A DNA stretch of 11,046 nucleotides, from contig CBDCLR010000002.1 in the NCBI GenBank assembly GCA_965218695.1, positions 1 to 11,046 on the forward strand, read 5' to 3'. The translations under genes were made by a program, and so were the position numbers. Position 1 is the stretch's first letter, and each line of letters begins with the position of its first letter. This document shows, in pieces, positions 1 through 11,046 of the stretch. The notes beneath the pieces were generated by a model, which searched no databases, was not told where the DNA came from, and worked only from the letters and a program-made list of their open reading frames with translations. The stretch is from Nitrosopumilus sp. Lineage in GTDB: Archaea > Thermoproteota > Nitrososphaeria > Nitrososphaerales > Nitrosopumilaceae.

Positions 1-1
1 G

Positions 2-214
2 ACGATGGATCTGTCGTTGGCGTGCGGCAGCGAAGACTCTAGGCCGACCGACACTAGCCGGTTGACGGGGGAGCAGCATGTGTTCATCACGGAGCCGGCC
101 GACTTTGACTTTGGGCCGATGCGAATTGACGAGTGCGAAATGTTCATCAATTATGTCGACTGGCCATCGCCGGACGTTGAATCCATGAGCGTTGATTTCT
201 TCTGCCACTGGTAG
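2..214 (+). CDS. 3' end of a hypothetical protein running in from the left edge (partial)
   Basis: Frame is open from the window start to TAG at 212-214 (…DLSLACGSEDSRPTD…VDFFCHW). Acidic, protein-like composition. No recognisable family. Confidence 0.5.
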   Translation, partial: TMDLSLACGSEDSRPTDTSRLTGEQHVFITEPADFDFGPMRIDECEMFINYVDWPSPDVESMSVDFFCHW

Positions 215-780: not shown

Positions 781-2193
781 TCATTCTGCATCCCTCAGAT
801 ACGCCTCTGGGTGCAGATCCCTGTGCTCCTGATAAAACATGGTCTCCTTAGTGTCCAGGTACAGCATGATGCCGGCATCCTCCCTAAAGTGTCCCCAGCC
901 GGTGATCATGGCCGGACCCTCTCTTACGGCCCCTATCTCGATGTCGTAGGTTATCGATTCCCCGCTTTCCAGATGCATGTCCGAGACGTGCCTGTAGTCT
1001 ATGGCGGTGTCCGTCCCGGGATGGTACACCGTCCTGTATGGCATGCCGTGGGAGTTCACGATCTCAAAGTTCGGACTTAGCTGCCATCCCGGATAGGATC
1101 GTTCCTGCCGTCCCACGGTACTGATTGGATGGTCGTTTGTGTATCCTATTTTTACAGTCGCAGTCTCGCCTACGCTTGGGAGGTTGGACATGCAGATCCT
1201 GGGCGGCGTCCCCCTTGATTCCGAATAGACGGATGCCGCAGATGGCTCTGTCGGGCAGGTGGACGACCAGTTTTGTACGGTATCCAGGAGGACAAATCCC
1301 CTCAGCTCAAGCTTTTCCAGCGATGCGCCAAAGACGCAGGCGGGCCTCCCGGATGGCGACTGCACCAGCAGCATCTCGTTCCGGCACTGCACCTGGTCTG
1401 TGGGTATCTGCATCTGCAGCTGCCTGCCTGGTGAGAGCGCCGCGTTCGCATCATGGCCTGCCAATCCTGCCCGGTCCAGCATGTGTTGAATCTGCGGCAT
1501 GGTAAAGGCCCGGGTTCCGGCTATGAAAAAATCCACAGCCTCAGATACGGAATACTCTTCCCCCTTAATGTGTGCAGCAATGGAGTTCATGGTGCTATAG
1601 ATTTCGCTCCGTTTGCTCAGCGCCTGACTCTGTTCCTCTGTCAGCGGCATGGGACGCGGCTCCTCGCCATCGTCTCTGGGCTGCGAGGGAGGGGCACGCG
1701 GCTCCGGATGGAGCCTCTTGTATTCGTCATAAAGCATGGTGTTATCAGAATCCAGATACAGTCCGATGTGGCCCTCATCCCCGTGTCCCCAGCCGGTGAT
1801 CATAGCCGGACCCTCGCTTACGGCCCTGATCTCGATGTTGTATGTTATTGACTCTCCGCGTTCTAGCGGCGTATGAGCGGCATGCACGTGTCTTCTGAGA
1901 TTGTCCGCTGCCGAGTCGTATACCGGCCTGTACGGCACGCCGTAGGAATCAACAATCTCCAGATTCGGACTTACGTGCCACCCTATGGACGGAATGTATG
2001 TACCGAGCAGGAAATCATTCGTGTATGATATTTCTACAAACGCAGTCTCGTTTATGTTGGGCAGGTTTGATATGTGCATAGCGGGCGCAGGTCCCCTTGA
2101 GGGTGGCGTCGCATGGACGGGGTCTGCAAGCACGGCAGCAGCTGCCACCAGCCCGAATACCAATACCATCGATGCCGGTATTGCACCCATCAT
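781..2193 (-). CDS. Secreted/surface protein with two Ig-like repeats, copy A (~470 aa)
   Basis: Likely start is ATG 2193 (MMGAIPASMVLVFGLVAAAAVLADPVHA, a signal peptide), about 20-25 bp after a TTATA box. Internal repeat SNLP..ETA.V.I.YTN…GW..SPN.EIV.S.G.PYR.VY…LE.GESITY.IEI.AV.EGPAMITGWGH…LYLD…LHPE occurs twice. Central SPGRQ…C…PACV…EKL..RGF motif. Paralogue at 3866-5293. Confidence 0.85.
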   Translation of the reverse strand: MMGAIPASMVLVFGLVAAAAVLADPVHATPPSRGPAPAMHISNLPNINETAFVEISYTNDFLLGTYIPSIGWHVSPNLEIVDSYGVPYRPVYDSAADNLRRHVHAAHTPLERGESITYNIEIRAVSEGPAMITGWGHGDEGHIGLYLDSDNTMLYDEYKRLHPEPRAPPSQPRDDGEEPRPMPLTEEQSQALSKRSEIYSTMNSIAAHIKGEEYSVSEAVDFFIAGTRAFTMPQIQHMLDRAGLAGHDANAALSPGRQLQMQIPTDQVQCRNEMLLVQSPSGRPACVFGASLEKLELRGFVLLDTVQNWSSTCPTEPSAASVYSESRGTPPRICMSNLPSVGETATVKIGYTNDHPISTVGRQERSYPGWQLSPNFEIVNSHGMPYRTVYHPGTDTAIDYRHVSDMHLESGESITYDIEIGAVREGPAMITGWGHFREDAGIMLYLDTKETMFYQEHRDLHPEAYLRDAE

Positions 2194-2460
2194 GACTCCT
2201 GAGGCGCGCTCGTATAAGAGTTGTAAAACTCGCGGTCTGGCACCTGCCAACACAAGAGAACCGGCCCGCCTAGTCTATTGCATAATTCATCTTACTGGAC
2301 TTGGACATGCACGAATCATGTGTGTACTGTGCTACGCCGTGCCTGCCTCCATGTCTATCAGCTTGTTGTACGTGGCCACTTTGATCCCGACCTTTGGGCC
2401 ATATTCTTCTACTTGGGCAGTACAGGCGCTCCCCAAACATCCTGTAAAAAGGCAGAAAAC
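786..2460 (-). repeat. Left arm of ~1.7-kb inverted duplication
   Basis: Reverse complement aligns with ~3595-5273. Identity ends at …GATGCAG (786 vs 5273) and fades inside the IS5 remnant. Confidence 0.95.
2211..2220 (-). promoter_or_regulatory. Putative archaeal TATA box (CTTATACG) of copy A
   Basis: TTATA about 20-25 bp upstream of ATG 2193. Identical at 3841-3848 in copy B. Confidence 0.5.
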
Positions 2461-2852: not shown

Positions 2853-3122
2853 ATGTCAGAACCAATAATGAGGACCGTGACCGTTTCAGAGAAGGGCCAG
2901 ATCTCGATACCACGGGACATTAGGATGCAGCTAGCGGTTAAGAGGGGTTCGAAACTGGTGCTCGTCCTGAAAGGCAAAAAACTCCTGATCAGCAGGGCAT
3001 CTGACATATCGCAATTGATTGAGGACGGCTTTGATGACGTGGTACGGCACTCTGAATACTCGCTGAAGAAGATATGGGACAACGAGGAGGACGAGGTATG
3101 GAACAGGTATCTAAAAACGTGA
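2853..3122 (+). CDS. AbrB/MazE/SpoVT-family antitoxin
   Basis: N-terminal TVTVSEKGQISIPRDIR swapped-hairpin signature, acidic C-terminus (SLKKIWDNEEDEVW), overlaps the toxin gene. Confidence 0.9.
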   Translation: MSEPIMRTVTVSEKGQISIPRDIRMQLAVKRGSKLVLVLKGKKLLISRASDISQLIEDGFDDVVRHSEYSLKKIWDNEEDEVWNRYLKT

Positions 3123-3454
3123 TCCAGCAGCGCTGCGTTATCATACTGCCGTTTCCATTCTCCGACCTGCAGCGGAAGAAGGCCAGGCCGGCAATCGTCG
3201 TATCAAACAACGGATACAACAGGAAATCAGATGACGTAGTGGTCGTGCCGCTCACGTCAAACCCAAGGCCGTCAGAATATGGCGTGCCGGTTACAAACAG
3301 GGATATGGAAGACGGAAGGCGGATTGTTGACAGTAATGCAAGGGTTGACAAGATATTCAGCGTGGAGAAAAGGATCATAGCGAAATGCATAGGAAAGGTA
3401 GACAGAAAAACTCACGCCGCCATATGCAAATTGCTCTCCGCCCTTACCGAATGA
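3098..3454 (+). CDS. mazF: PemK/MazF-family endoribonuclease toxin
   Basis: PFPFSDL…KARPAIVVSN..YN….VVVVPLTS signature. Start is ATG 3098 (GAGG upstream) or GTG 3119 overlapping the antitoxin stop (GTGA). Confidence 0.9.
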   Translation: MEQVSKNVIQQRCVIILPFPFSDLQRKKARPAIVVSNNGYNRKSDDVVVVPLTSNPRPSEYGVPVTNRDMEDGRRIVDSNARVDKIFSVEKRIIAKCIGKVDRKTHAAICKLLSALTE

Positions 3455-3518
3455 GGCTCTGGTAAATTCTAGTGATCTCTGTCGTTTACTGTTCAAAAGT
3501 GTGTTTTTGGATCTTCTC
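3455..3518 (+). repeat. Truncated copy of the GGCTCTGG element long end
   Basis: GGCTCTGGTAAATTCTAGTGATCTCTG…TGTTCAAAAGTGTGTTTTTGGATCTTCT matches 7494-7556. Begins on the base after the mazF stop. Confidence 0.85.
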
Positions 3519-3594
3519 GTTTCTTTTATATAGCTTTTTTGGGCCACCGCCAGCAGATTGCCAGCATCCCAGCCCTCGAAGATTACACAGGACC

Positions 3595-3786
3595 CGTTTT
3601 GCGGTTCTTTAAGAGGATGTTTGGCAAACATCTGTACTCGCTCAAGTGGAAGAACATGATCCAGGAGGTCAGGATCAAAGTGGCCACGTACAACAAGCTG
3701 ATAGACATGGAGGCAGGCACGGCGTAGCACAGTACACGCATGATCCGTGCATGTCCAAGTCCAGTAGGATGGATTATGCAACAGAC
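3595..3786 (+). mobile_element. IS5-family right-end remnant (second copy)
   Basis: FFKRMFGKHLYSLKWKNMIQEVRIKVATYNKLIDMEAGTA* followed by IR GGATTATGCAACAGAC (3771-3786). Inverted homologue of 2273-2460. Confidence 0.75.
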
Positions 3787-5273
3787 TAGGCGTACCAGTT
3801 CTCTTGCATTGGCGGGTGCCAGACCGCGAGTTTTACAACTCTTATACGAGCGCGCCTCAGGAGTCATGATGGGTGCAATACCGGCATTGATGGTATTGGT
3901 AATCGGATTGGTGGCAGCCGCTGCCATGCTTGCAGACCCCGTCCATGCGACGCCGCCCTTATTGGGAGATGCGCCCGCGATGCGCATATCAAACCTGCCC
4001 AACATAAACGAGACTGCGTTTGTAGAAATAACATACACGGACGTTTTCCTGTTCGACGCATACCCTCCGTCCAGAGGGTGGAGCGTAAGTCCGAATCTGG
4101 AGATTGTTGATTCCTACGGCGTGCCGTACAGGCCAGTATATGACTCGGCAGCGGACAATCTCAGAAGACACATGCATGCCGCTCATACGCCGCTAGAACG
4201 CGGAGAGTCAATAACATACAACATCGAGATCAGGGCCGTAAGCGAGGGTCGGGCCACGATTGCCGCCTGGGGACACGTGGATACGGGTCACATCGTACTG
4301 TATCTAGATTCTTATCACACCATGCTTTATGACGAATACAGAAGGCTGCATCCGGAGCCGCGTGCCCCTCCCCCGCAGCCCAGAGACGATGGCGAGGGGC
4401 CACGTTACATACCGCTGACAGAGGAACAGAGTCAGGCGCTGAGCAGAGAGCAAGAAATCGATAGCACCATGGGCTCCATTGCCGCACACATTCAGAGGGA
4501 AGGGCATGCCGCATCTGAGGCCGTGGATTTTTTCATAGCCGGAACCCGGGCCTTTACCATGCCGCAGATTCAACACATGCTGGACCGGGCGGGATTTGCA
4601 GGCCATGATGTGAACGCGGCGCTCTCACCAGGCAGGCAGCTGCAGATGCAGATACCCACAGACCAGGTGCAGTGCCGGAACGAGATGCTGCTGGTGCAGT
4701 CGCCATCCGGGAGGCCCGCCTGCGTCTTTGGCGCATCGCTGGAAAAGCTTGAGCGGAGGGGGTTTGTCCTCCTGGATACCGTACGAAACTGGTCGTCCAT
4801 CTGCCCGACAGAGCCATCTGCGGCATCCGTCTATTCGGAATCAAGGGGGACGCCGCCCAGGATCTGCATGTCCAACCTCCCAAGCGTAGGCGAGACTGCG
4901 ACTGTAAAAATAGGATACACAAACGACCAACCAATCAGTACCGCGGGACGGCAGGAACGATCCTATCCGGGATGGCAGCTAAGTCCGAACTTTGAGATCG
5001 TGGACTCCCACGGCATGCCATACAGGACAGTGTACCATCCCGGGACGGACACCGTCATAGACTACAGGCACGTCTCGGACATGCATCTGGAAAGCGGGGA
5101 ATCGATAACCTACGACATCGAGGTAAGGGCCGTAAGAGAGGGTCCGGCCATGATCACCGGCTGGGGACACTTTAGGGAGGATGCCGGCATCATGCTGTAC
5201 CTGGACTCCGCGGAGACCATGTTTTATCAGGAGCACAGGGATCTGCATCCCGAGGCGTATCTGAGGGATGCAG
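3595..5273 (+). repeat. Right arm of ~1.7-kb inverted duplication
   Basis: Aligns with the reverse complement of 786-2460, with no indels visible in the coding part. Confidence 0.95.
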
Positions 5274-5293
5274 GATTGATGTGGACCCCATAA
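3866..5293 (+). CDS. Secreted/surface protein with two Ig-like repeats, copy B (~475 aa)
   Basis: Start is ATG 3866 after TTATA (3842-3846), with a signal peptide and the same architecture as copy A. The last residues (LMWTP*) are contributed by an IS3 end. Confidence 0.85.
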   Translation: MMGAIPALMVLVIGLVAAAAMLADPVHATPPLLGDAPAMRISNLPNINETAFVEITYTDVFLFDAYPPSRGWSVSPNLEIVDSYGVPYRPVYDSAADNLRRHMHAAHTPLERGESITYNIEIRAVSEGRATIAAWGHVDTGHIVLYLDSYHTMLYDEYRRLHPEPRAPPPQPRDDGEGPRYIPLTEEQSQALSREQEIDSTMGSIAAHIQREGHAASEAVDFFIAGTRAFTMPQIQHMLDRAGFAGHDVNAALSPGRQLQMQIPTDQVQCRNEMLLVQSPSGRPACVFGASLEKLERRGFVLLDTVRNWSSICPTEPSAASVYSESRGTPPRICMSNLPSVGETATVKIGYTNDQPISTAGRQERSYPGWQLSPNFEIVDSHGMPYRTVYHPGTDTVIDYRHVSDMHLESGESITYDIEVRAVREGPAMITGWGHFREDAGIMLYLDSAETMFYQEHRDLHPEAYLRDAGLMWTP

Positions 5294-5418: not shown

Positions 5419-6513
5419 TGGTGACACGTCAAAGTTTTGCCTGATTTTGACTCACCAACCGAAATGTTTCTAGATCTCAATCTGCTGGGTCGGCTATGGA
5501 CGAAACAGACTGGGAAGGATTCAAGAAAGCGTATCGGCAGGAAAAGGATCCCAGAGTACGGGCGCGAATGCTTGCAGTATGCATGGTTCATGTACGGAAA
5601 AGAAGCGTAGAGGACACTGCCGACCTCCTCATGCAGTCGCCCGACTGGGTACGATCTGGATTCGAAGGTACGACGGAGGCCTTGACGGCCTCTTGGACCT
5701 TCCCAGATGCGGCAGGCCAAGGAGCATTCCAGCATCTACACTCAACAGGATAATTTTCGATCTTGGCAGTTCAAGAATCACTCCCGTCATGCTACAGCAG
5801 GTCATGCACGAAAAGGCAGGCAGAAAGCTGCACATAACATACGTCAGAAAGATCATGCGCCGGCATGGCCTCTCCCCGAAGGCGTCACAGAAGATCCATA
5901 TCAGGAGAGCCAACGGCAAGACTGTAAAAAATTGGCAGCATGACATCAAAAAGTGGATTTCACGCATGGAAAACGAGGGATTCGTCGTGGTCATGGAGGA
6001 CGAGGCGTTTTTTGTGCATGACGCGGCAACAGGACGCAAATGCTGGCCGCCCGTGGCAAGCCCGGTAACGTGCCCCATACCGGAAGCCACAGGAAGGTCG
6101 CAGCATACGGATCGATTGCAAGGGACGGGAGGCAATTCTTCCGAACCTATGACTGGTTTAACGCAGAGACCCTTGCCAGATACCTGAAGGATTTGCAGGG
6201 ACATTTTGGAAGGGTTACCGTGATAACGGACGGGGTCTCCCCGCATCGGGCACAACTGGTCAGGCAACTGTTGAGGGAAAACAGAAACATCAGAATCAGA
6301 CACTTCCCCCGGGGCTTGCCATATCTTAACGCAGTGGAAGAATGCTGGCACCAAGGAAAACGCATTCTGCCTGTCTCCGAGTATTACAGAACGTTCTCCG
6401 ACCTATGCCGTGCCGTGTCCACGCATTGCCGAACGGCCAGATTCAACTTGGAGCTGTTAAAATATGCAAACCGAAAAACGAAATTGATCTCTAAAGACTT
6501 TTGATCGTCACTA
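5419..6513 (+). mobile_element. IS630-family insertion sequence (~1.1 kb), flanked by TA
   Basis: TA at 5417-5418 and 6514-6515. Imperfect IRs TGGTGACACGTCAAAGTTTT and (reverse complement) TAGTGACGATCAAAAGTCTT. Confidence 0.85.
5496..6504 (+). pseudogene. IS630 transposase, two frameshifts (~5652, ~6045)
   Basis: Three successive frames: HTH (EKDPRVRARMLAV…), then GLDGLLDLPRCGRP…MEDEAFF, then VITDG..PH…PYLNAVEECW (DDE triad). The second break lies inside the catalytic domain. Confidence 0.85.
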
Positions 6514-7404: not shown

Positions 7405-7493
7405 GGCTCTGGTAAATTTAGGTGATCCCTGTAAGTCACTGTTCAAGAAGTGATCTAGACTGGGCTGAGGATCACCTGAATTTAACAGCAGGG
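7405..7493 (-). mobile_element. Divergent member of the GGCTCTGG element family, left piece (interrupted)
   Basis: GGCTCTGGTAAATTTAGGTGATCC…TGTTCAAGAAGTGATC…GGATCACCTGAATTTAACAGCAGG. Appears to continue at 10953. Confidence 0.7.
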
Positions 7494-7646
7494 GGCTCTG
7501 GTAAATTCTAGTGATCTCTGCCGTTCACTGTTCAAAAGTGTGTTTAGGATCTTCTTCAGATTCAATCCCGTCGCATTTCATCACGGTGTTCAAAAGTGTG
7601 GTGCCTTCCACAAGACTGTTCAAAAGTGAGCTGAGCTGTACTTGCA
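7494..7646 (+). repeat. GGCTCTGG element long end, copy 1
   Basis: Terminal GGCTCTGGTAAATTCTAGTGATCTCT plus TGTTCAAAAGTG at 7529, 7587 and 7617. Confidence 0.9.
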
Positions 7647-7848
7647 GGCTCTGGTAAATTCTAGTGATCTCTGCCGTTCACTGTTCAAGAGTGTGTTTTA
7701 GGATCTTTTCCGGATTCAATCTCGCCGCATTTCGTCATGGCGTTCAAAAGTGTGGTGCCTTCCACAAGGCTGTTCAAAAGTATGTTGAGTCGCTCTTGCA
7801 CCTTGGTGGTAAATTTTGGTGATCTGATCACCAAAATCTACCAGAGCC
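7647..7848 (+). mobile_element. MITE-like GGCTCTGG element, copy 2 (tandem with copy 1)
   Basis: Starts GGCTCTGGTAAATTCTAGTGATC and ends GATCACCAAAATCTACCAGAGCC (imperfect 23-bp TIR). No coding capacity. Confidence 0.8.
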
Positions 7849-8380
7849 ATATCGGAGACCGCGCCCAGCGTGATCTGCACCAGCACGATGCAGTTTGCTG
7901 ACCAAACATTCGAGGAGAGCGTCGAGAAATCCGGCCTGATCGTCGTTGGAACCGTGGTGGACGTGGGAATCAAGGTATTCCCGGAGGACATCATGGACGT
8001 GGACGAGGACGGCAACGAGTACGTCCTGGAGCACAACGGGATCCCGAGGGCGGAGGTAACGGTTCAAATTCAGGAGGTACTAAAGGACGATGTAGGCCTG
8101 ACTTCTGAGACCGTGACATTCTATGACGACGTGAACGACGCGATCGGGGAAAGCGACAGCCAAAAGGCCAAGTACATCTCGCAATACGCCATAGACTACC
8201 AGAAAGGCGACAGGGGACTCTTCCTCATAGACAACGACAGGGGGCTGAGCATGCTCGGCTACTCCTCGTACTACGATACTGGAGGGAAAGGAGACCATAA
8301 CCACGGAATTGGACAAGCTTCTCGGGAAGGAGTCGCTTGACCTGTCTGAAGCCAAAGAGATCGCGCAAAACGACGGTTAA
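7849..8380 (+). pseudogene. Acidic hypothetical protein, 5'-truncated and frameshifted
   Basis: Frame is open right up to the element end at 7848 (ISETAPSVICTSTMQF…). After YSSYY (~8275) another frame continues ILEGKETITTELDKLLGKESLDLSEAKEIAQNDG* to TAA 8378-8380, just before a T-tract. Confidence 0.65.
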
Positions 8381-8390
8381 AAACCACCAA

Positions 8391-8402
8391 CTCTCTTTTT
8401 TT
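8391..8402 (+). terminator. Archaeal oligo-T terminator
   Basis: CTCTCTTTTTTT about 10 bp after TAA 8380. Confidence 0.5.
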
Positions 8403-8510
8403 CATGATACGCTAATGGATTTCATGCACATCCGATGATGCCATGCATCAGGCGCTAGTTCAATCCAGATTGAAGATTTTGTTATTACGATCTGACGTGC
8501 ATACAACGCA

Positions 8511-9644
8511 ATGAATAGAACAACAGCGACGATCTTTGTAGCAACACTGGCTGTGGGATTGATTGGATCTACCTTTGCGCTGTCGCAAGACATTATGGCG
8601 CAGGGCGGCATCGGGCAAAACACCATAAAATCCGAACCGCCGACATTCGACACTCCTGACATACAGCGGATGACAGAGATTGTGCGACAACTACACGACG
8701 AGGCGACGACAGAATCCGAGAGGGCGGAACTGATTGAAGAAGCACAACAGATCAAAAGATCTCACGAGCAAAGGTTCGACAGCACGGCAAGACAGGCAAT
8801 GCTGGACAAGAAAGACGTGATAGTCGAGTACATATCCGGCAACCTGAATCTCAGGTCGTTTGACGACTTCACGTCAGAGTTTCCAGTCTCCGGCCTGTAC
8901 GTGGACAGCGCCACCAACAAGCTGGTAGTCAACGTCTTCCCGGACGAATTCGACAGCAACGCAGAAAGCGTGCTGCAAAAGGTCAGGGAACTCGTGGGCA
9001 TGGACATCGACATCACAGTACAGCCGATGCCGGCAATAACCCCGCAATGCTCCCAAACAGGAAACTGCGAACCGGCCCAAGGGGGAGTCAAGATCTCAAC
9101 GGCGGAGGGCGCATGCAGCATGGGCTTCAAGGCAATGCGCAACGGTGACATCGGCTTTGTGACTGCGGGACACTGCACCGACGGCAGCACGGACGCGACC
9201 GTAGGCCAGCCAAACTACTACTACTGGGATCACATCGGTTCGGTTACTGCCAACAGCTACAGGTTCGGAAGCTCGGCTGACGCAATGTTCGTGGAGGCAG
9301 ACGAGAGCATCAGTGACAGGATATACAACAACATCGATATCAACTGGGCAGGAAGCACGGGATTGTTGGACGGGGTCCACATGGAAGGGCACACCTCGAA
9401 GGGAGTGTTAGGAGTCGTGGTGGACGTCTCGTACAGCTCCTACGTTGACAGCGTCTGGATAAACGACATGGCAGCGACGACCTATGATGGAGACGGTGGC
9501 GACAGCGGTGGACCCGTATACGGCTACATCCCGTCAACGAACTTCAAGGGAACACACGTAGGATCTAACGGAATAATATCGACGTCCTCGAAACAGGCAA
9601 ACATACTAGATGAGATCTCCGGCTTGTCTTGGAGATTCACCTAG
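8511..9644 (+). CDS. Secreted S1-family (chymotrypsin fold, alpha-lytic/streptogrisin-like) serine protease with prepro region
   Basis: Signal peptide and long pro-region. Catalytic motifs CSMGF…FVTAGHC (His), ADAMFV (Asp) and GDSGGP (Ser). Confidence 0.9.
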   Translation: MNRTTATIFVATLAVGLIGSTFALSQDIMAQGGIGQNTIKSEPPTFDTPDIQRMTEIVRQLHDEATTESERAELIEEAQQIKRSHEQRFDSTARQAMLDKKDVIVEYISGNLNLRSFDDFTSEFPVSGLYVDSATNKLVVNVFPDEFDSNAESVLQKVRELVGMDIDITVQPMPAITPQCSQTGNCEPAQGGVKISTAEGACSMGFKAMRNGDIGFVTAGHCTDGSTDATVGQPNYYYWDHIGSVTANSYRFGSSADAMFVEADESISDRIYNNIDINWAGSTGLLDGVHMEGHTSKGVLGVVVDVSYSSYVDSVWINDMAATTYDGDGGDSGGPVYGYIPSTNFKGTHVGSNGIISTSSKQANILDEISGLSWRFT

Positions 9645-10163
9645 CCTTTTTTTTAAATACAGCACCGCCAATCCCGCTATGACGACGACCAGCGGGTAAA
9701 CCAGCGGGTCTACTGACCGTACTTGGGGAGTTATGTGGCCGCCTACCTGTGTCACTTGGAGCATGTCAACCAGAAAGTAAGACAGCGCGGCAGACGCCCC
9801 CACTGCTGCAAACTTTACCGTCCTCTTGAACAGCTTCTTCAGGGCACCCTCGCTTTCCGTCCCCTCTGGCAGCACCAGGATGCCCGGATGTACCCTGAAA
9901 AACCTGTGCTCCTTTCCCTTCTTGGTGATCCTCCCGGTTCTTACCTCGACCAGCCCGATCGACTCCATCTTTTTGAGGTGGTGGATGACCAGGTTGGCCC
10001 TGAGGTTCAGCCTCCTTGCAATGTCGTTCGTGTAGCTCTCCTTATGGATTAGCAGCCTTATGATATCCCTGCTTGACTTGTTGCCAAGCAGTTCGCCCAA
10101 AATCTTCAGCTTGTCGTCATCAGAATAAAAGACATTGATCCTGCCAAACTCGTCATCTACCAT
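9606..10163 (-). CDS. Membrane-anchored ArsR-type winged-HTH transcriptional regulator
   Basis: ELLGNKSSRDIIRLL….YTNDIARRLNLRANLVIHHLKKMESIGLV winged HTH, plus two C-terminal hydrophobic segments (FAAVGASAALSYFLV; LVYPLVVVIAGLAVLYL). TTATTATAAG about 20-30 bp upstream. Confidence 0.85.
   Translation of the reverse strand: MVDDEFGRINVFYSDDDKLKILGELLGNKSSRDIIRLLIHKESYTNDIARRLNLRANLVIHHLKKMESIGLVEVRTGRITKKGKEHRFFRVHPGILVLPEGTESEGALKKLFKRTVKFAAVGASAALSYFLVDMLQVTQVGGHITPQVRSVDPLVYPLVVVIAGLAVLYLKKRLGESPRQAGDLI
9645..9654 (+). terminator. Oligo-T terminator of the protease gene
   Basis: CC followed by T8 immediately after TAG 9642-9644. Confidence 0.5.
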
Positions 10164-10360
10164 GGTTGTTGGAATAGCTTTGCTTATAATAAGCAGATCT
10201 GGGGTTCCGCATGATTCTCTGGTGACGTCTGGGACTGAGGCAAGCGGCCGGCACGCACCGTTATATATCTCCTGTATGTGTTCACGTCGTGCCTAATTTC
10301 GTTCACTCGGGGGTAAATTTTGCTTAAACCACAGATCCAAATAGGATGACGATTTAGGCC

Positions 10361-10603
10361 GGCTCTGGTAAATTTTGGTGATCTCGGCCGTTCGCTGTTC
10401 AATAGTGTGTTCTAGGATCCCCTCCAGATTCAATCCCGCCGCATTTCGTCACGGTGTTCAAAAGTGCGGTGCATTCAACAAGGCTGTTCAAAAGTGAGCT
10501 CGCTCATGTTTGCACCTTGGTGGTAGATTTTTGTGATCTCGGTCCATTCTTTTCTTGACCCTGGTAAATTTTGGTGATTTGATCACCAAAATCTACCAGA
10601 GCC
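10361..10603 (+). mobile_element. MITE-like GGCTCTGG element, copy 3
   Basis: GGCTCTGGTAAATTTTGGTGATC…three TGTTCAA boxes…two internal TIR-core copies…GATCACCAAAATCTACCAGAGCC. Confidence 0.8.
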
Positions 10604-10754
10604 GCAGGCCTCATAGGGTACAGGAAGAGCGGCGGCAAGATCATCACTCAGCCAAACTGCCACAAATGCAGGGCAGGGCTGTCCAAAAGCCCTAAAAAAC
10701 GCACGGGGGCAAACCGCAAAAGGATGGCAAAAAGATCCGTTCTCATGGGCACGA

Positions 10755-10952
10755 TCCAGAAAAGATCGAACTGAGATCACGAAAATCTACCACCAAGGTG
10801 TAAGTATAGCTCGGCTCACTTTTGAACAGCCTTGTGGAGGGCATCACACTTTTGAACACCATGACGAAATGCAACGGGATTGAATCAGGAGAAGATCCTA
10901 AAACACACTTTTGAACAGTGAACGGTAGAGATCACTAGAATTTACCAGAGCC
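10755..10952 (-). repeat. GGCTCTGG element long end, copy 4 (inverted)
   Basis: Reverse complement of 7494-7646 / 10361-10557. Three CACTTTTGAACA boxes. Ends GATCACTAGAATTTACCAGAGCC. Confidence 0.9.
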
Positions 10953-11015
10953 CAGCAGGATCCGCAGCTCACATTTGAACACCGGGCCAGGACGGATCAC
11001 GACTTTTGAACGGCA
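10953..11015 (-). repeat. Divergent GGCTCTGG-family element, right piece
   Basis: CAGCTCACATTTGAACA and GATCACGACTTTTGAACG boxes about 30 bp apart, colinear with boxes 2-3 of the family end. Confidence 0.6.
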
Positions 11016-11046
11016 GAACGGCGCCGACGAGAACCGCAGAAAACCA

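What the first reader, a model, noticed from the sequence alone, without database searches (positions are those of the whole stretch)
7405..11015. The unit sits inside a related element of its own family, at the internal copy of the terminal motif (self-targeting/nesting)
Seen: joining 7485 to 10953 and reading the minus strand gives GTTCAAAAGTCGTGATC…TGTTCAAATGTGAGCTG…TCCTGCTG-TTAAATTCAGGTGATCC…GGATCACCTAAATTTACCAGAGCC. This is colinear with the family order of box 2, box 3 (GTGAGCTG), internal motif (CCTTGGTG-GTAAATTTTGGTGATC) and inverted terminus. The duplicated 8-mer corresponds in register to CCTTGGTG, and copy 2 joins copy 1 (7646/7647) at the edge of that same 8-mer. Inference: the internal degenerate terminus acts as a built-in landing site, allowing arrays and nested cargo to accumulate. 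This is reminiscent of IS26 targeted cointegration but among non-coding ends.
Basis: partly seen in the sequence, partly recalled or inferred. Interest (0 to 1): 0.75.

Follow-up and report, generated by a model that had tools for sequence, protein, structure and literature searches.

The report
Mini-transposons that land inside relatives' ends
A family of tiny gene-less jumping elements in ammonia-oxidising archaea keeps inserting into its own relatives at a fixed distance from a resident end sequence, which builds nested, cargo-carrying stacks and suggests that a short DNA site can steer where the element lands.

Summary
Nesting is confirmed. With the 3.46-kb unit (7494-10952) and one copy of its 8-bp duplication removed, the flanks match an uninterrupted 241-bp sister element in a Cenarchaeum MAG at 154/168 nt. 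Self-targeting is real: 9 of 42 family termini follow another family site, against a 1.4% background. The landing site is not the edge of the internal motif, though. Most nested junctions fall 18-21 bp from a resident site's GTGA(T/G)C motif, which for a terminal repeat means an 8-bp target at positions 30-37 (or 29-36). The focal insertion fits the rule through box 3 (20 bp). Copy 2's junction uses a different 8-mer. A fresh duplication and 63%-identical partners rule out IS26-type conservative targeting. Termini look like archaeal IS6-like ends, but no cognate transposase was found. Closest precedents are IS30/IS911 end-targeting and the P-element self hot spot. Verdict: a new variant of a known kind.

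The parts
7405..7493 (-). Outer element (subfamily B MITE, 241 bp when intact), right-end portion: terminal repeat 7405-7427, inverted box near 7435-7450, internal motif core 7470-7486
   Evidence: 95.5% to L004:11391-11303; motif scan
7486..7493 (.). Left copy of the 8-bp target duplication (ancestral form)
   Evidence: Identical to the single copy in intact L004
7494..7646 (+). Copy C: left-type end (terminal repeat plus boxes 1-3), truncated by copy D; left boundary of the mobile unit
   Evidence: 92% to copy F over about 150 nt
7639..7646 (.). 8-mer target used by copy D's left end; junction 21 bp from box 3's GTGAGC and 9 bp outside the (lost) internal motif
   Evidence: polarity of the junction read from the sequence
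7647..7848 (+). Copy D: complete 202-bp MITE; internal motif 7802-7824 plus terminal repeat 7826-7848 form a 47-bp palindromic right end; no flanking duplication
   Evidence: equals type E minus the 41 bp between two direct cores
7831..7838 (.). Family hot-spot 8-mer in D's right end (positions 30-37 from the internal motif); empty here, occupied in a related copy
   Evidence: P0001 (98% to the cargo ORF) begins with a left-end peptide joined to the last 18 nt of this end; inferred from protein
7849..8380 (+). Cargo gene 1, unnamed family; 5' end (about 30 codons with a hydrophobic leader) cut off by D's right end; frameshift near 8270
   Evidence: Full-length homologs P0002-P0005 of 200-209 aa
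8511..9644 (+). Cargo gene 2: probable secreted chymotrypsin-type serine protease (377 aa)
   Evidence: Weak hits only: streptogrisin B E=0.002, Pfam Pro_Al_protease E=0.005; His and GDSGG motifs seen by eye
9606..10163 (-). Cargo gene 3: ArsR-type winged-helix regulator with C-terminal hydrophobic segments
   Evidence: Pfam HTH_20 and HTH_5 above cut-off
10361..10603 (+). Copy E: complete 243-bp MITE in direct orientation to D; no flanking duplication
   Evidence: 88-92% to L007 copies
10604..10774 (-). Remnant of the passenger-bearing interior of copy F's long element, cut by E's right end
   Evidence: 10643-10952 is 84% identical to L002:9717-10023, a 904-bp element with passenger ORFs
10775..10952 (-). 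Copy F: left-type end with boxes 1-3 and internal motif; right boundary of the mobile unit
10953..10960 (.). Right copy of the 8-bp target duplication (one substitution)
10953..11046 (-). Outer element, upstream portion: box 3 (10981-10970; its GTGAGC starts 20 bp from the junction) and box 2 (11012-11001); predicted to end near 11112
   Evidence: 87% to L004:11310-11224
3455..3518 (+). Lone truncated left-type end of the same family, directly after the mazF stop codon

Best explanation
The repeats are non-autonomous miniature elements (47-243 bp, plus longer passenger cassettes) with 23-bp terminal repeats and arrays of tip-less copies of the same site at about 27-41-bp spacing. SHOWN: a composite bounded by two left ends inserted with an 8-bp duplication into a subfamily-B relative. 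SHOWN statistically: family ends land in relatives at two fixed offsets from a resident site, mainly an 8-bp target at positions 30-37 (29-36) and less often the 8 bp just outside the tip, and free targets show no sequence consensus. INFERRED: a DDE transposase supplied in trans (most likely an archaeal IS6-like enzyme) binds a resident site, recruits the donor complex and makes strand transfer at a fixed distance from that site, as IS911, IS2 and IS30 do with a recipient end. INFERRED, about 35% within this model: the site is a weak dyad centred on position 15, so it can be bound in either direction. Normal binding gives the outside target; reversed binding gives a cryptic tip at 29 and the target at 30-37 (6+6+8 = 20 bp from GTGA(T/G)C). 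INFERRED: intramolecular events (adjacent deletion, inversion) then strip most duplications and trim cargo genes, leaving stubs of 36-37 bp.
For: Intact empty copy and duplication. 9 of 42 termini follow a strong family site within 24-100 bp, against 1.4% of positions, p about 5e-9. 7 of 10 such junctions lie 18-21 bp from the inner motif (scan-corrected p 4e-5), and 5 of 7 in the three other genomes alone (p 3e-4). In L004 one B copy is flanked by a 37-bp right-end stub and a 36-bp left-end stub once an IS5 is removed. Out of sample, after the rule was fixed: of 59 junction rows from 58 ENA ORFs, 23 scored 26 or more (shuffle 95th percentile 25, maximum 31 of 150). Of these, 18 are at the hot spot, 4 lie 8 bp outside a tip and 1 is elsewhere, against a null share of 0.028. 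Both sides of the same 8-mer are seen (18-nt and 37-nt stubs, and reads starting at terminal-repeat position 11), with several incoming and host subtypes. 28 free flanks show no information content above random. Only 2 of 25 end pairings keep a duplication, as reported for replicative IS26 (PMC4471558 passages). A fixed distance from a subterminal binding site is documented for IS911 and IS2 (PMC7780238 passage).
Against: No transposase was found between such ends in 227 locus ORFs scanned (of 272 listed) or in those, so the enzyme and its binding are untested. 3 of 10 DNA junctions miss the window (30, 32, 72 bp; the last is the focal unit's other end, and the first two may be one ancestral event). 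ORF-derived junctions are inferred from peptides, biased to open frames, and not all independent: 14 after merging shared flanks and about 8 after merging by incoming and host type. Seven of the 18 score only 26-30, near the null tail. Two sub-threshold rows (P0029, P0012) may be 19-nt and 16-nt stubs, off the rule. The dyad is weak: centre 15 is best of 16 at only 42% complementarity, and the reversed site at 29 ranks second by PWM. The C/D junction lies 1 bp from two different predictions.
Confidence: 0.68

Rival explanations
1. As in the P element, the ends simply contain a preferred target sequence or DNA shape (for example the A/T tract in the 47-bp palindrome), helped by survival of insertions in dispensable DNA.
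For: A P-element hot spot at bp 19-26 of itself and 8-bp-spaced double insertions are explained that way (PMC2577343 passages). Most protein-derived hits fall on one 8-mer in the palindrome.
Against: The seven hot-spot 8-mers seen in DNA share no sequence, and their A+T share (0.50) equals that of free targets (0.51). Free flanks show no consensus (28 flanks). The same offset recurs in left ends, box 3 and other end types with unrelated sequence at 30-37.
Confidence: 0.14
2. A few ancient junctions created doubled ends (stub plus terminal repeat) that later spread as units, or the 36-37-bp spacing is native end architecture, so the apparent hot spot is inherited.
For: L003 has the same doubled end twice. 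The 47/49-bp cases look homologous across genomes. The L012 outer stubs moved as a unit with an 8-bp duplication. Several ORFs share junction type or flank.
Against: The focal event has a duplication and an empty homolog. About 8 distinct incoming-by-host-by-side classes share the offset, and even 7 of 8 gives p about 1e-10. The same end types also occur with free flanks.
Confidence: 0.09
3. One reading: the 5' edge of the internal degenerate terminus is the landing pad, used by IS26-like targeted cointegration.
For: The focal target covers register 0..7 of the motif and the C/D junction is at its edge. One L004 target covers -1..6 of box 1. C/D can be read as 9 bp outside the motif, near the 8-bp outside class.
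Against: 0 of 59 ORF rows and no other-genome junction at that register. The C/D target is a different 8-mer. A new duplication and 63% identity contradict the conservative IS26 route.
Confidence: 0.07
4. Chance nesting in an IS-rich region, or misassembly of repeats.
For: The loci are crowded with IS5, IS630 and IS66 remnants.
Against: Duplication plus empty homolog; p values; the loci come from chromosome-length records.
Confidence: 0.02

Closest known systems
IS30 IR-targeting and IS911/IS2 targeted strand transfer (copy-out/paste-in families)
   Same: Insertion is directed by a resident end, at a fixed distance from its subterminal binding site (PMC9333248 passages; PMC7780238 passage). 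The minor class here (two ends back to back, 8 bp apart) has that geometry.
   Different: Those reactions hit the flank outside the end, with short spacers. The main class here lands inside the element, also from tip-less internal sites, and can give a full 8-bp duplication.
IS6/IS26 family, especially the archaeal IS6-like group and its MITEs
   Same: 8-bp direct repeats; GG tip and G7; cTGTt/caaa-like variants; G10 absent and a longer repeat, as described for archaeal members; duplications rarely kept; two IS6 MITEs of 227 and 336 bp are on record.
   Different: Arrays of subterminal sites and a palindromic right end were not mentioned in the passages read. The unit is bounded by inverted, like ends. 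IS26 targeting is conservative and needs identical ends. No linked transposase was found.
Drosophila P element self-insertion hot spot (bp 19-26 of the element)
   Same: An 8-bp-duplication transposon with a hot spot within its own end and double insertions 8 bp apart (PMC2577343 passages).
   Different: That hot spot is attributed to a target sequence motif; here no target motif was detected and the offset tracks a binding-site-like motif across unrelated sequences.
IS1595 family (ISPna2 group; end formula GGCnnTG recalled, not from a call)
   Same: 8-bp duplication and GGCnnTG tips would fit; passenger cassettes are known in that family (recalled).
   Different: The one IS1595 transposase in the loci (L004:14304-15233, NF033547 160 bits) lies outside the neighbouring family end, which points away from it.

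Membership tests
MITE / non-autonomous IS derivative | Short element with terminal inverted repeats and no transposase gene | tested here: met
   23-bp repeats bound 47-243-bp copies; an open internal frame shows no codon-position bias, 32/27/28
MITE / non-autonomous IS derivative | Evidence of mobility (duplication, empty site) | tested here: met
   Focal 7/8 duplication and empty homolog L004; L012 outer unit 8/8
IS6/IS26 family (archaeal IS6-like group) | 8-bp direct target repeats | tested here: met
   2 of 25 pairings keep one, both best read as 8 bp (7 and 9 bp are the exact-match lengths)
IS6/IS26 family (archaeal IS6-like group) | GG tip, G7, cTGTt and caaa motifs | tested here: inconclusive
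   G1 39/41, G2 37/41, G7 41/41, but the termini were selected on these bases; T8 only 10/41 and C10 8/41
IS6/IS26 family (archaeal IS6-like group) | IS6-type DDE transposase gene between the repeats | tested here: inconclusive
   None found. An IS6-like remnant (L001:5345-6037, NF033587 E 8e-9, below cut-off) has a family-internal 17-mer about 140 bp downstream but no clear terminus
IS6/IS26 family (archaeal IS6-like group) | Movement by cointegrate formation | not testable with these tools
   Scarce duplications and truncated neighbours are consistent with it, not proof
IS6/IS26 pseudo-compound transposon | Flanking copies in direct orientation | tested here: not met
   The duplication-flanked unit is bounded by inverted left ends C and F; the direct pair D/E has no duplication
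IS26 targeted conservative cointegration | No new element copy or new duplication; identical reacting ends | tested here: not met
   New 8-bp duplication; host and donor subfamilies 164/261 identical; criteria
IS30/IS911-type end targeting | Insertion next to a resident end, forming a back-to-back end junction | tested here: inconclusive
   Met by the minor class (L011 = P0058, P0010, P0025, P0055); not met by the main class, which lies inside the end
IS30/IS911-type end targeting | [quoted passage not shown] | tested here: met
   18-21 bp from GTGA(T/G)C in 7 of 10 DNA junctions and 18 of 23 scoring ORF rows; protein binding to the motif is inferred
IS1595 family | IS1595 transposase bounded by these repeats | tested here: inconclusive
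   The only copy in the loci is not bounded by them; only about 200 kb from 3 genomes was seen

The most novel reading that the evidence does not exclude
A single DDE transposase of an archaeal IS6-like family uses any 23-bp end site, even one without a cleavable tip, as a two-way landing beacon. Bound normally, it directs insertion 8 bp outside the tip; bound in reverse, it directs insertion to positions 30-37 whatever the sequence there. The subterminal arrays would then be built-in docking slots that stack cargo cassettes like an integron without an integrase, and a 23-bp tag could be used to aim insertions.
Probability: 0.28. Interest if true: 0.78.

Novelty: new variant of a known kind. 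Interest (0 to 1): 0.58.

Why it matters
Self-targeting by insertion sequences is known (IS26, IS30, IS911), but in the forms I read about it acts at or outside the tip. A sharp, sequence-independent hot spot inside the end, in a probable IS6-like archaeal family, gives a testable handle on how such transposases engage a second element end. The review read treats that step as a model only. It also explains how these archaea pile cargo (here a protease and a regulator) into already dispensable DNA. If the offset follows the site, a short tag could position insertions without RNA guides or accessory proteins. Ten literature searches found no description of this family or offset; the library lacks most subscription journals and ISfinder was not available.

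Tried and rejected
Rfam: no match in the window. Plasmid blastn with copy D: 9 chance-level hits. An IS6 reference plasmid named in a paper was not in the collections. IS1595 (L004) rejected as a demonstrated partner because the adjacent end points away. IS5, IS66, IS630 and IS3/IS481-type elements in the loci have unrelated repeats or none detected. C/D as a slippage duplication rejected: C and D are 88% identical and D starts with a true tip. A 7-bp duplication reading rejected because both homologs (L004, L007) carry the base found in the left copy. A coding role for the open frame in left ends rejected. 'Internal motif is a fossil insertion at the hot spot' left open: 36 bp from box 3 in D/E types but 27 bp in B. 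Target-sequence consensus not found. P0056 (score 28, offset 45) judged a false hit because its flank is an IS630 fragment, but kept in the counts. P0022, P0026 and P0040 read by eye as 37-nt stubs but scored below threshold and were not counted. The 6 short ORFs were read by eye only; none is nested. Cluster members of P0001 could not be listed. Metagenome and viral contig collections stayed unchecked. Terminal 13-mers found only unrelated papers. No structure prediction was run, as there was no cognate protein.
Full report
Anatomy. The window holds several copies of one non-coding repeat family with a 23-bp terminal repeat (consensus GGCTCTGGTAAATTYWRGTGATC), three internal boxes (CTGTTCAAAAGTG) and an internal copy of the core whose first six bases differ. 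From left to right: outer end 7405-7493; copy C 7494-7646 (truncated); copy D 7647-7848 (202 bp); cargo; copy E 10361-10603 (243 bp); a remnant 10604-10774; copy F 10952-10775 on the minus strand; and more of the outer element to the window edge. D equals E minus the 41 bp between two direct cores. The cargo is a 5'-truncated, frameshifted gene of an unnamed family, a probable serine protease (weak hits) and an ArsR-type regulator. F continues at 84% into a 904-bp passenger-bearing element in L002, so E's right end cut into F's interior. One scan of GTDB genomes gave 13 loci from three MAGs titled Nitrosopumilus sp. (two) and Cenarchaeum sp.. None carries the cargo, so the source genome was not recovered; an ammonia-oxidising archaeal host is inferred from these relatives.

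The observation. L004:11151-11391 is an uninterrupted copy of the outer element. It matches the two window halves at 95.5% and 87%, overlapping on eight bases. The rejoined window sequence aligns at 154/168 nt, score 266 against a shuffle maximum of 27. The single target equals the left window copy. So the unit 7494-10952 inserted with an 8-bp duplication into a relative, and the duplicated 8-mer does cover register 0..7 of the internal motif. The host is a separate subfamily (B), colinear with E at 164/261 columns. At 7646/7647 the retained eight bases are 7639-7646, so copy D used register -8..-1: the same coordinate on the other strand, but a different target.

Is self-targeting real? Of 42 termini in the window and loci, 9 have a strong family site 24-100 bp upstream in the same direction, against 1.4% of positions (p about 5e-9; accumulation in dispensable DNA would lower but hardly remove this). 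After adding two termini found by hand, 10 of 44 qualify. Measured from the resident site's GTGA(T/G)C motif, the distances are 18, 19, 19, 20, 20, 20, 21, 30, 32 and 72 bp. Seven of ten in any 4-bp window has p 4e-5 under uniform placement along intact copies; five of seven in the other genomes alone has p 3e-4. The 72 is the focal unit's other end, and 30 and 32 may be one inherited event. For hosts that are terminal repeats the rule means stubs of 36-37 bp. In L004, removing an IS5 that split the B left repeat leaves a B copy between a 37-bp right-end stub and a 36-bp left-end stub. Weaker sites give 37/37 in L003 and 37/35 in L012 (not counted). One pair sits back to back 8 bp apart (L011).

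Out-of-sample test. After the rule was set, P0001, a 98% relative of cargo gene 1, proved to start with a translated left end joined to the last 18 nt of D's right end, which is the predicted 8-mer. I then searched with a profile of outward-reading end peptides. This returned 58 ORFs among 7999 scored candidates (capped) and 6 among 167. Matching each flank peptide to every offset of 31 host ends gave 59 rows, 23 of them scoring 26 or more (150 shuffles: 95th percentile 25, maximum 31). Eighteen are at the hot spot: eight 18-nt stubs, seven 37-nt stubs, two reads from repeat position 11 and one from position 29. Four are back to back at 8 bp, one of them probably the L011 junction itself, and one is elsewhere. 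Hot-spot registers make up 2.8% of detectable offsets. Merging shared flanks leaves 14 of 15; merging by incoming and host type leaves about 8 classes, and even 7 of 8 gives p about 1e-10. Limits: junctions are read from peptides, open frames are favoured, seven hits score near the null tail, and two sub-threshold rows may be off-rule.

How it probably works. Free targets have no consensus (28 flanks) and the hot-spot 8-mers share no sequence, so position, not sequence, sets the site. The focal insertion is 20 bp from box 3's GTGAGC; it meets the internal motif because B spaces these two sites 27 bp apart. In D/E types the internal motif does appear to direct landing, but 30-37 bp downstream, inside the right terminal repeat. 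I infer that transposase bound to a resident site captures the donor complex and transfers at a fixed distance, as reported for IS911 and IS2 (PMC7780238, passages) and IS30 (PMC9333248, passages). The two target classes are mirror images about position 15, the centre of the conserved core 7-23. Reversed binding would give a cryptic tip at 29 and a junction 6+6+8 = 20 bp from the motif, the modal value. Sequence support for the dyad is modest (best of 16 centres, 42%; reversed PWM second best), so tandem packing or a footprint edge remain possible. Only 2 of 25 end pairings keep a duplication, which resembles IS26's intramolecular rearrangements (PMC4471558, passages).

Comparison. The termini fit the description of archaeal IS6-like ends (PMC6807381, passages and section 14; PMC7986276, passages and section 22), but no transposase was found between them. 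An IS6-like remnant in L001 has a family-internal 17-mer downstream, and one ORF shows a B end abutting a related transposase tail; both are only suggestive. The IS1595 gene in L004 lies outside the neighbouring end. IS26 targeted cointegration is excluded for this event: it is conservative and needs identical ends. The P element has a hot spot at bp 19-26 of itself, attributed to a target motif (PMC2577343, passages). A survey of thaumarchaeal mobile elements does not use the word MITE (PMC6563490, passages). No supplements were read; the repeat alignments in those papers' figures and supplements could bear on the family assignment.

Verdict. Interest 0.58.

Noticed in passing
window 783-2393 and 3666-5276: 1611-bp inverted duplication (94%) of a 490-517-aa gene that itself has an internal repeat of about 890 bp; no Pfam match. 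It brackets the mazEF region.
   Followed up: no
window 3539-3786 (copy near 2273-2449): IS5-family transposase tail (NF033579 E 0.003) with a probable terminal repeat near 3774-3786, included in the inverted duplication; a different family from the MITEs.
   Followed up: partly
window 2853-3454: MazE/MazF-type toxin-antitoxin pair; a lone family end starts directly after the mazF stop codon.
   Followed up: partly
window 5496-6504: Frameshifted IS630-family transposase in three pieces.
   Followed up: no
L001:9977-10023, L002:9120-9166, L010:11566-11612: 47-bp palindromes of two head-to-head terminal repeats one base apart, free-standing or as right ends; possibly the smallest mobile unit of the family.
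   Followed up: partly
L012:9964-11186: Two 97%-identical MITE copies in inverted orientation inside 37- and 35-bp stubs of another end type; the whole is flanked by a perfect 8-bp duplication.
   Followed up: partly
L004:10038-11157: An IS5-family element inserted into the tip of a subfamily-B terminal repeat with a probable 3-bp duplication.
   Followed up: yes
L001:5345-6260: IS6-like transposase remnant with the family's internal 17-mer about 140 bp downstream; a lead to the cognate enzyme.
   Followed up: partly
L005:12329-17774: CBASS-like cluster (SMODS, HORMA, AAA ATPase, SAVED) interrupted by an IS, about 2 kb from a family end.
   Followed up: no
L003:9964-11196: Cassette with doubled inverted ends (outer repeat, 37 bp, inner repeat) around a 306-aa passenger gene with Cys-x-x-Cys motifs and no family match.
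   Followed up: partly
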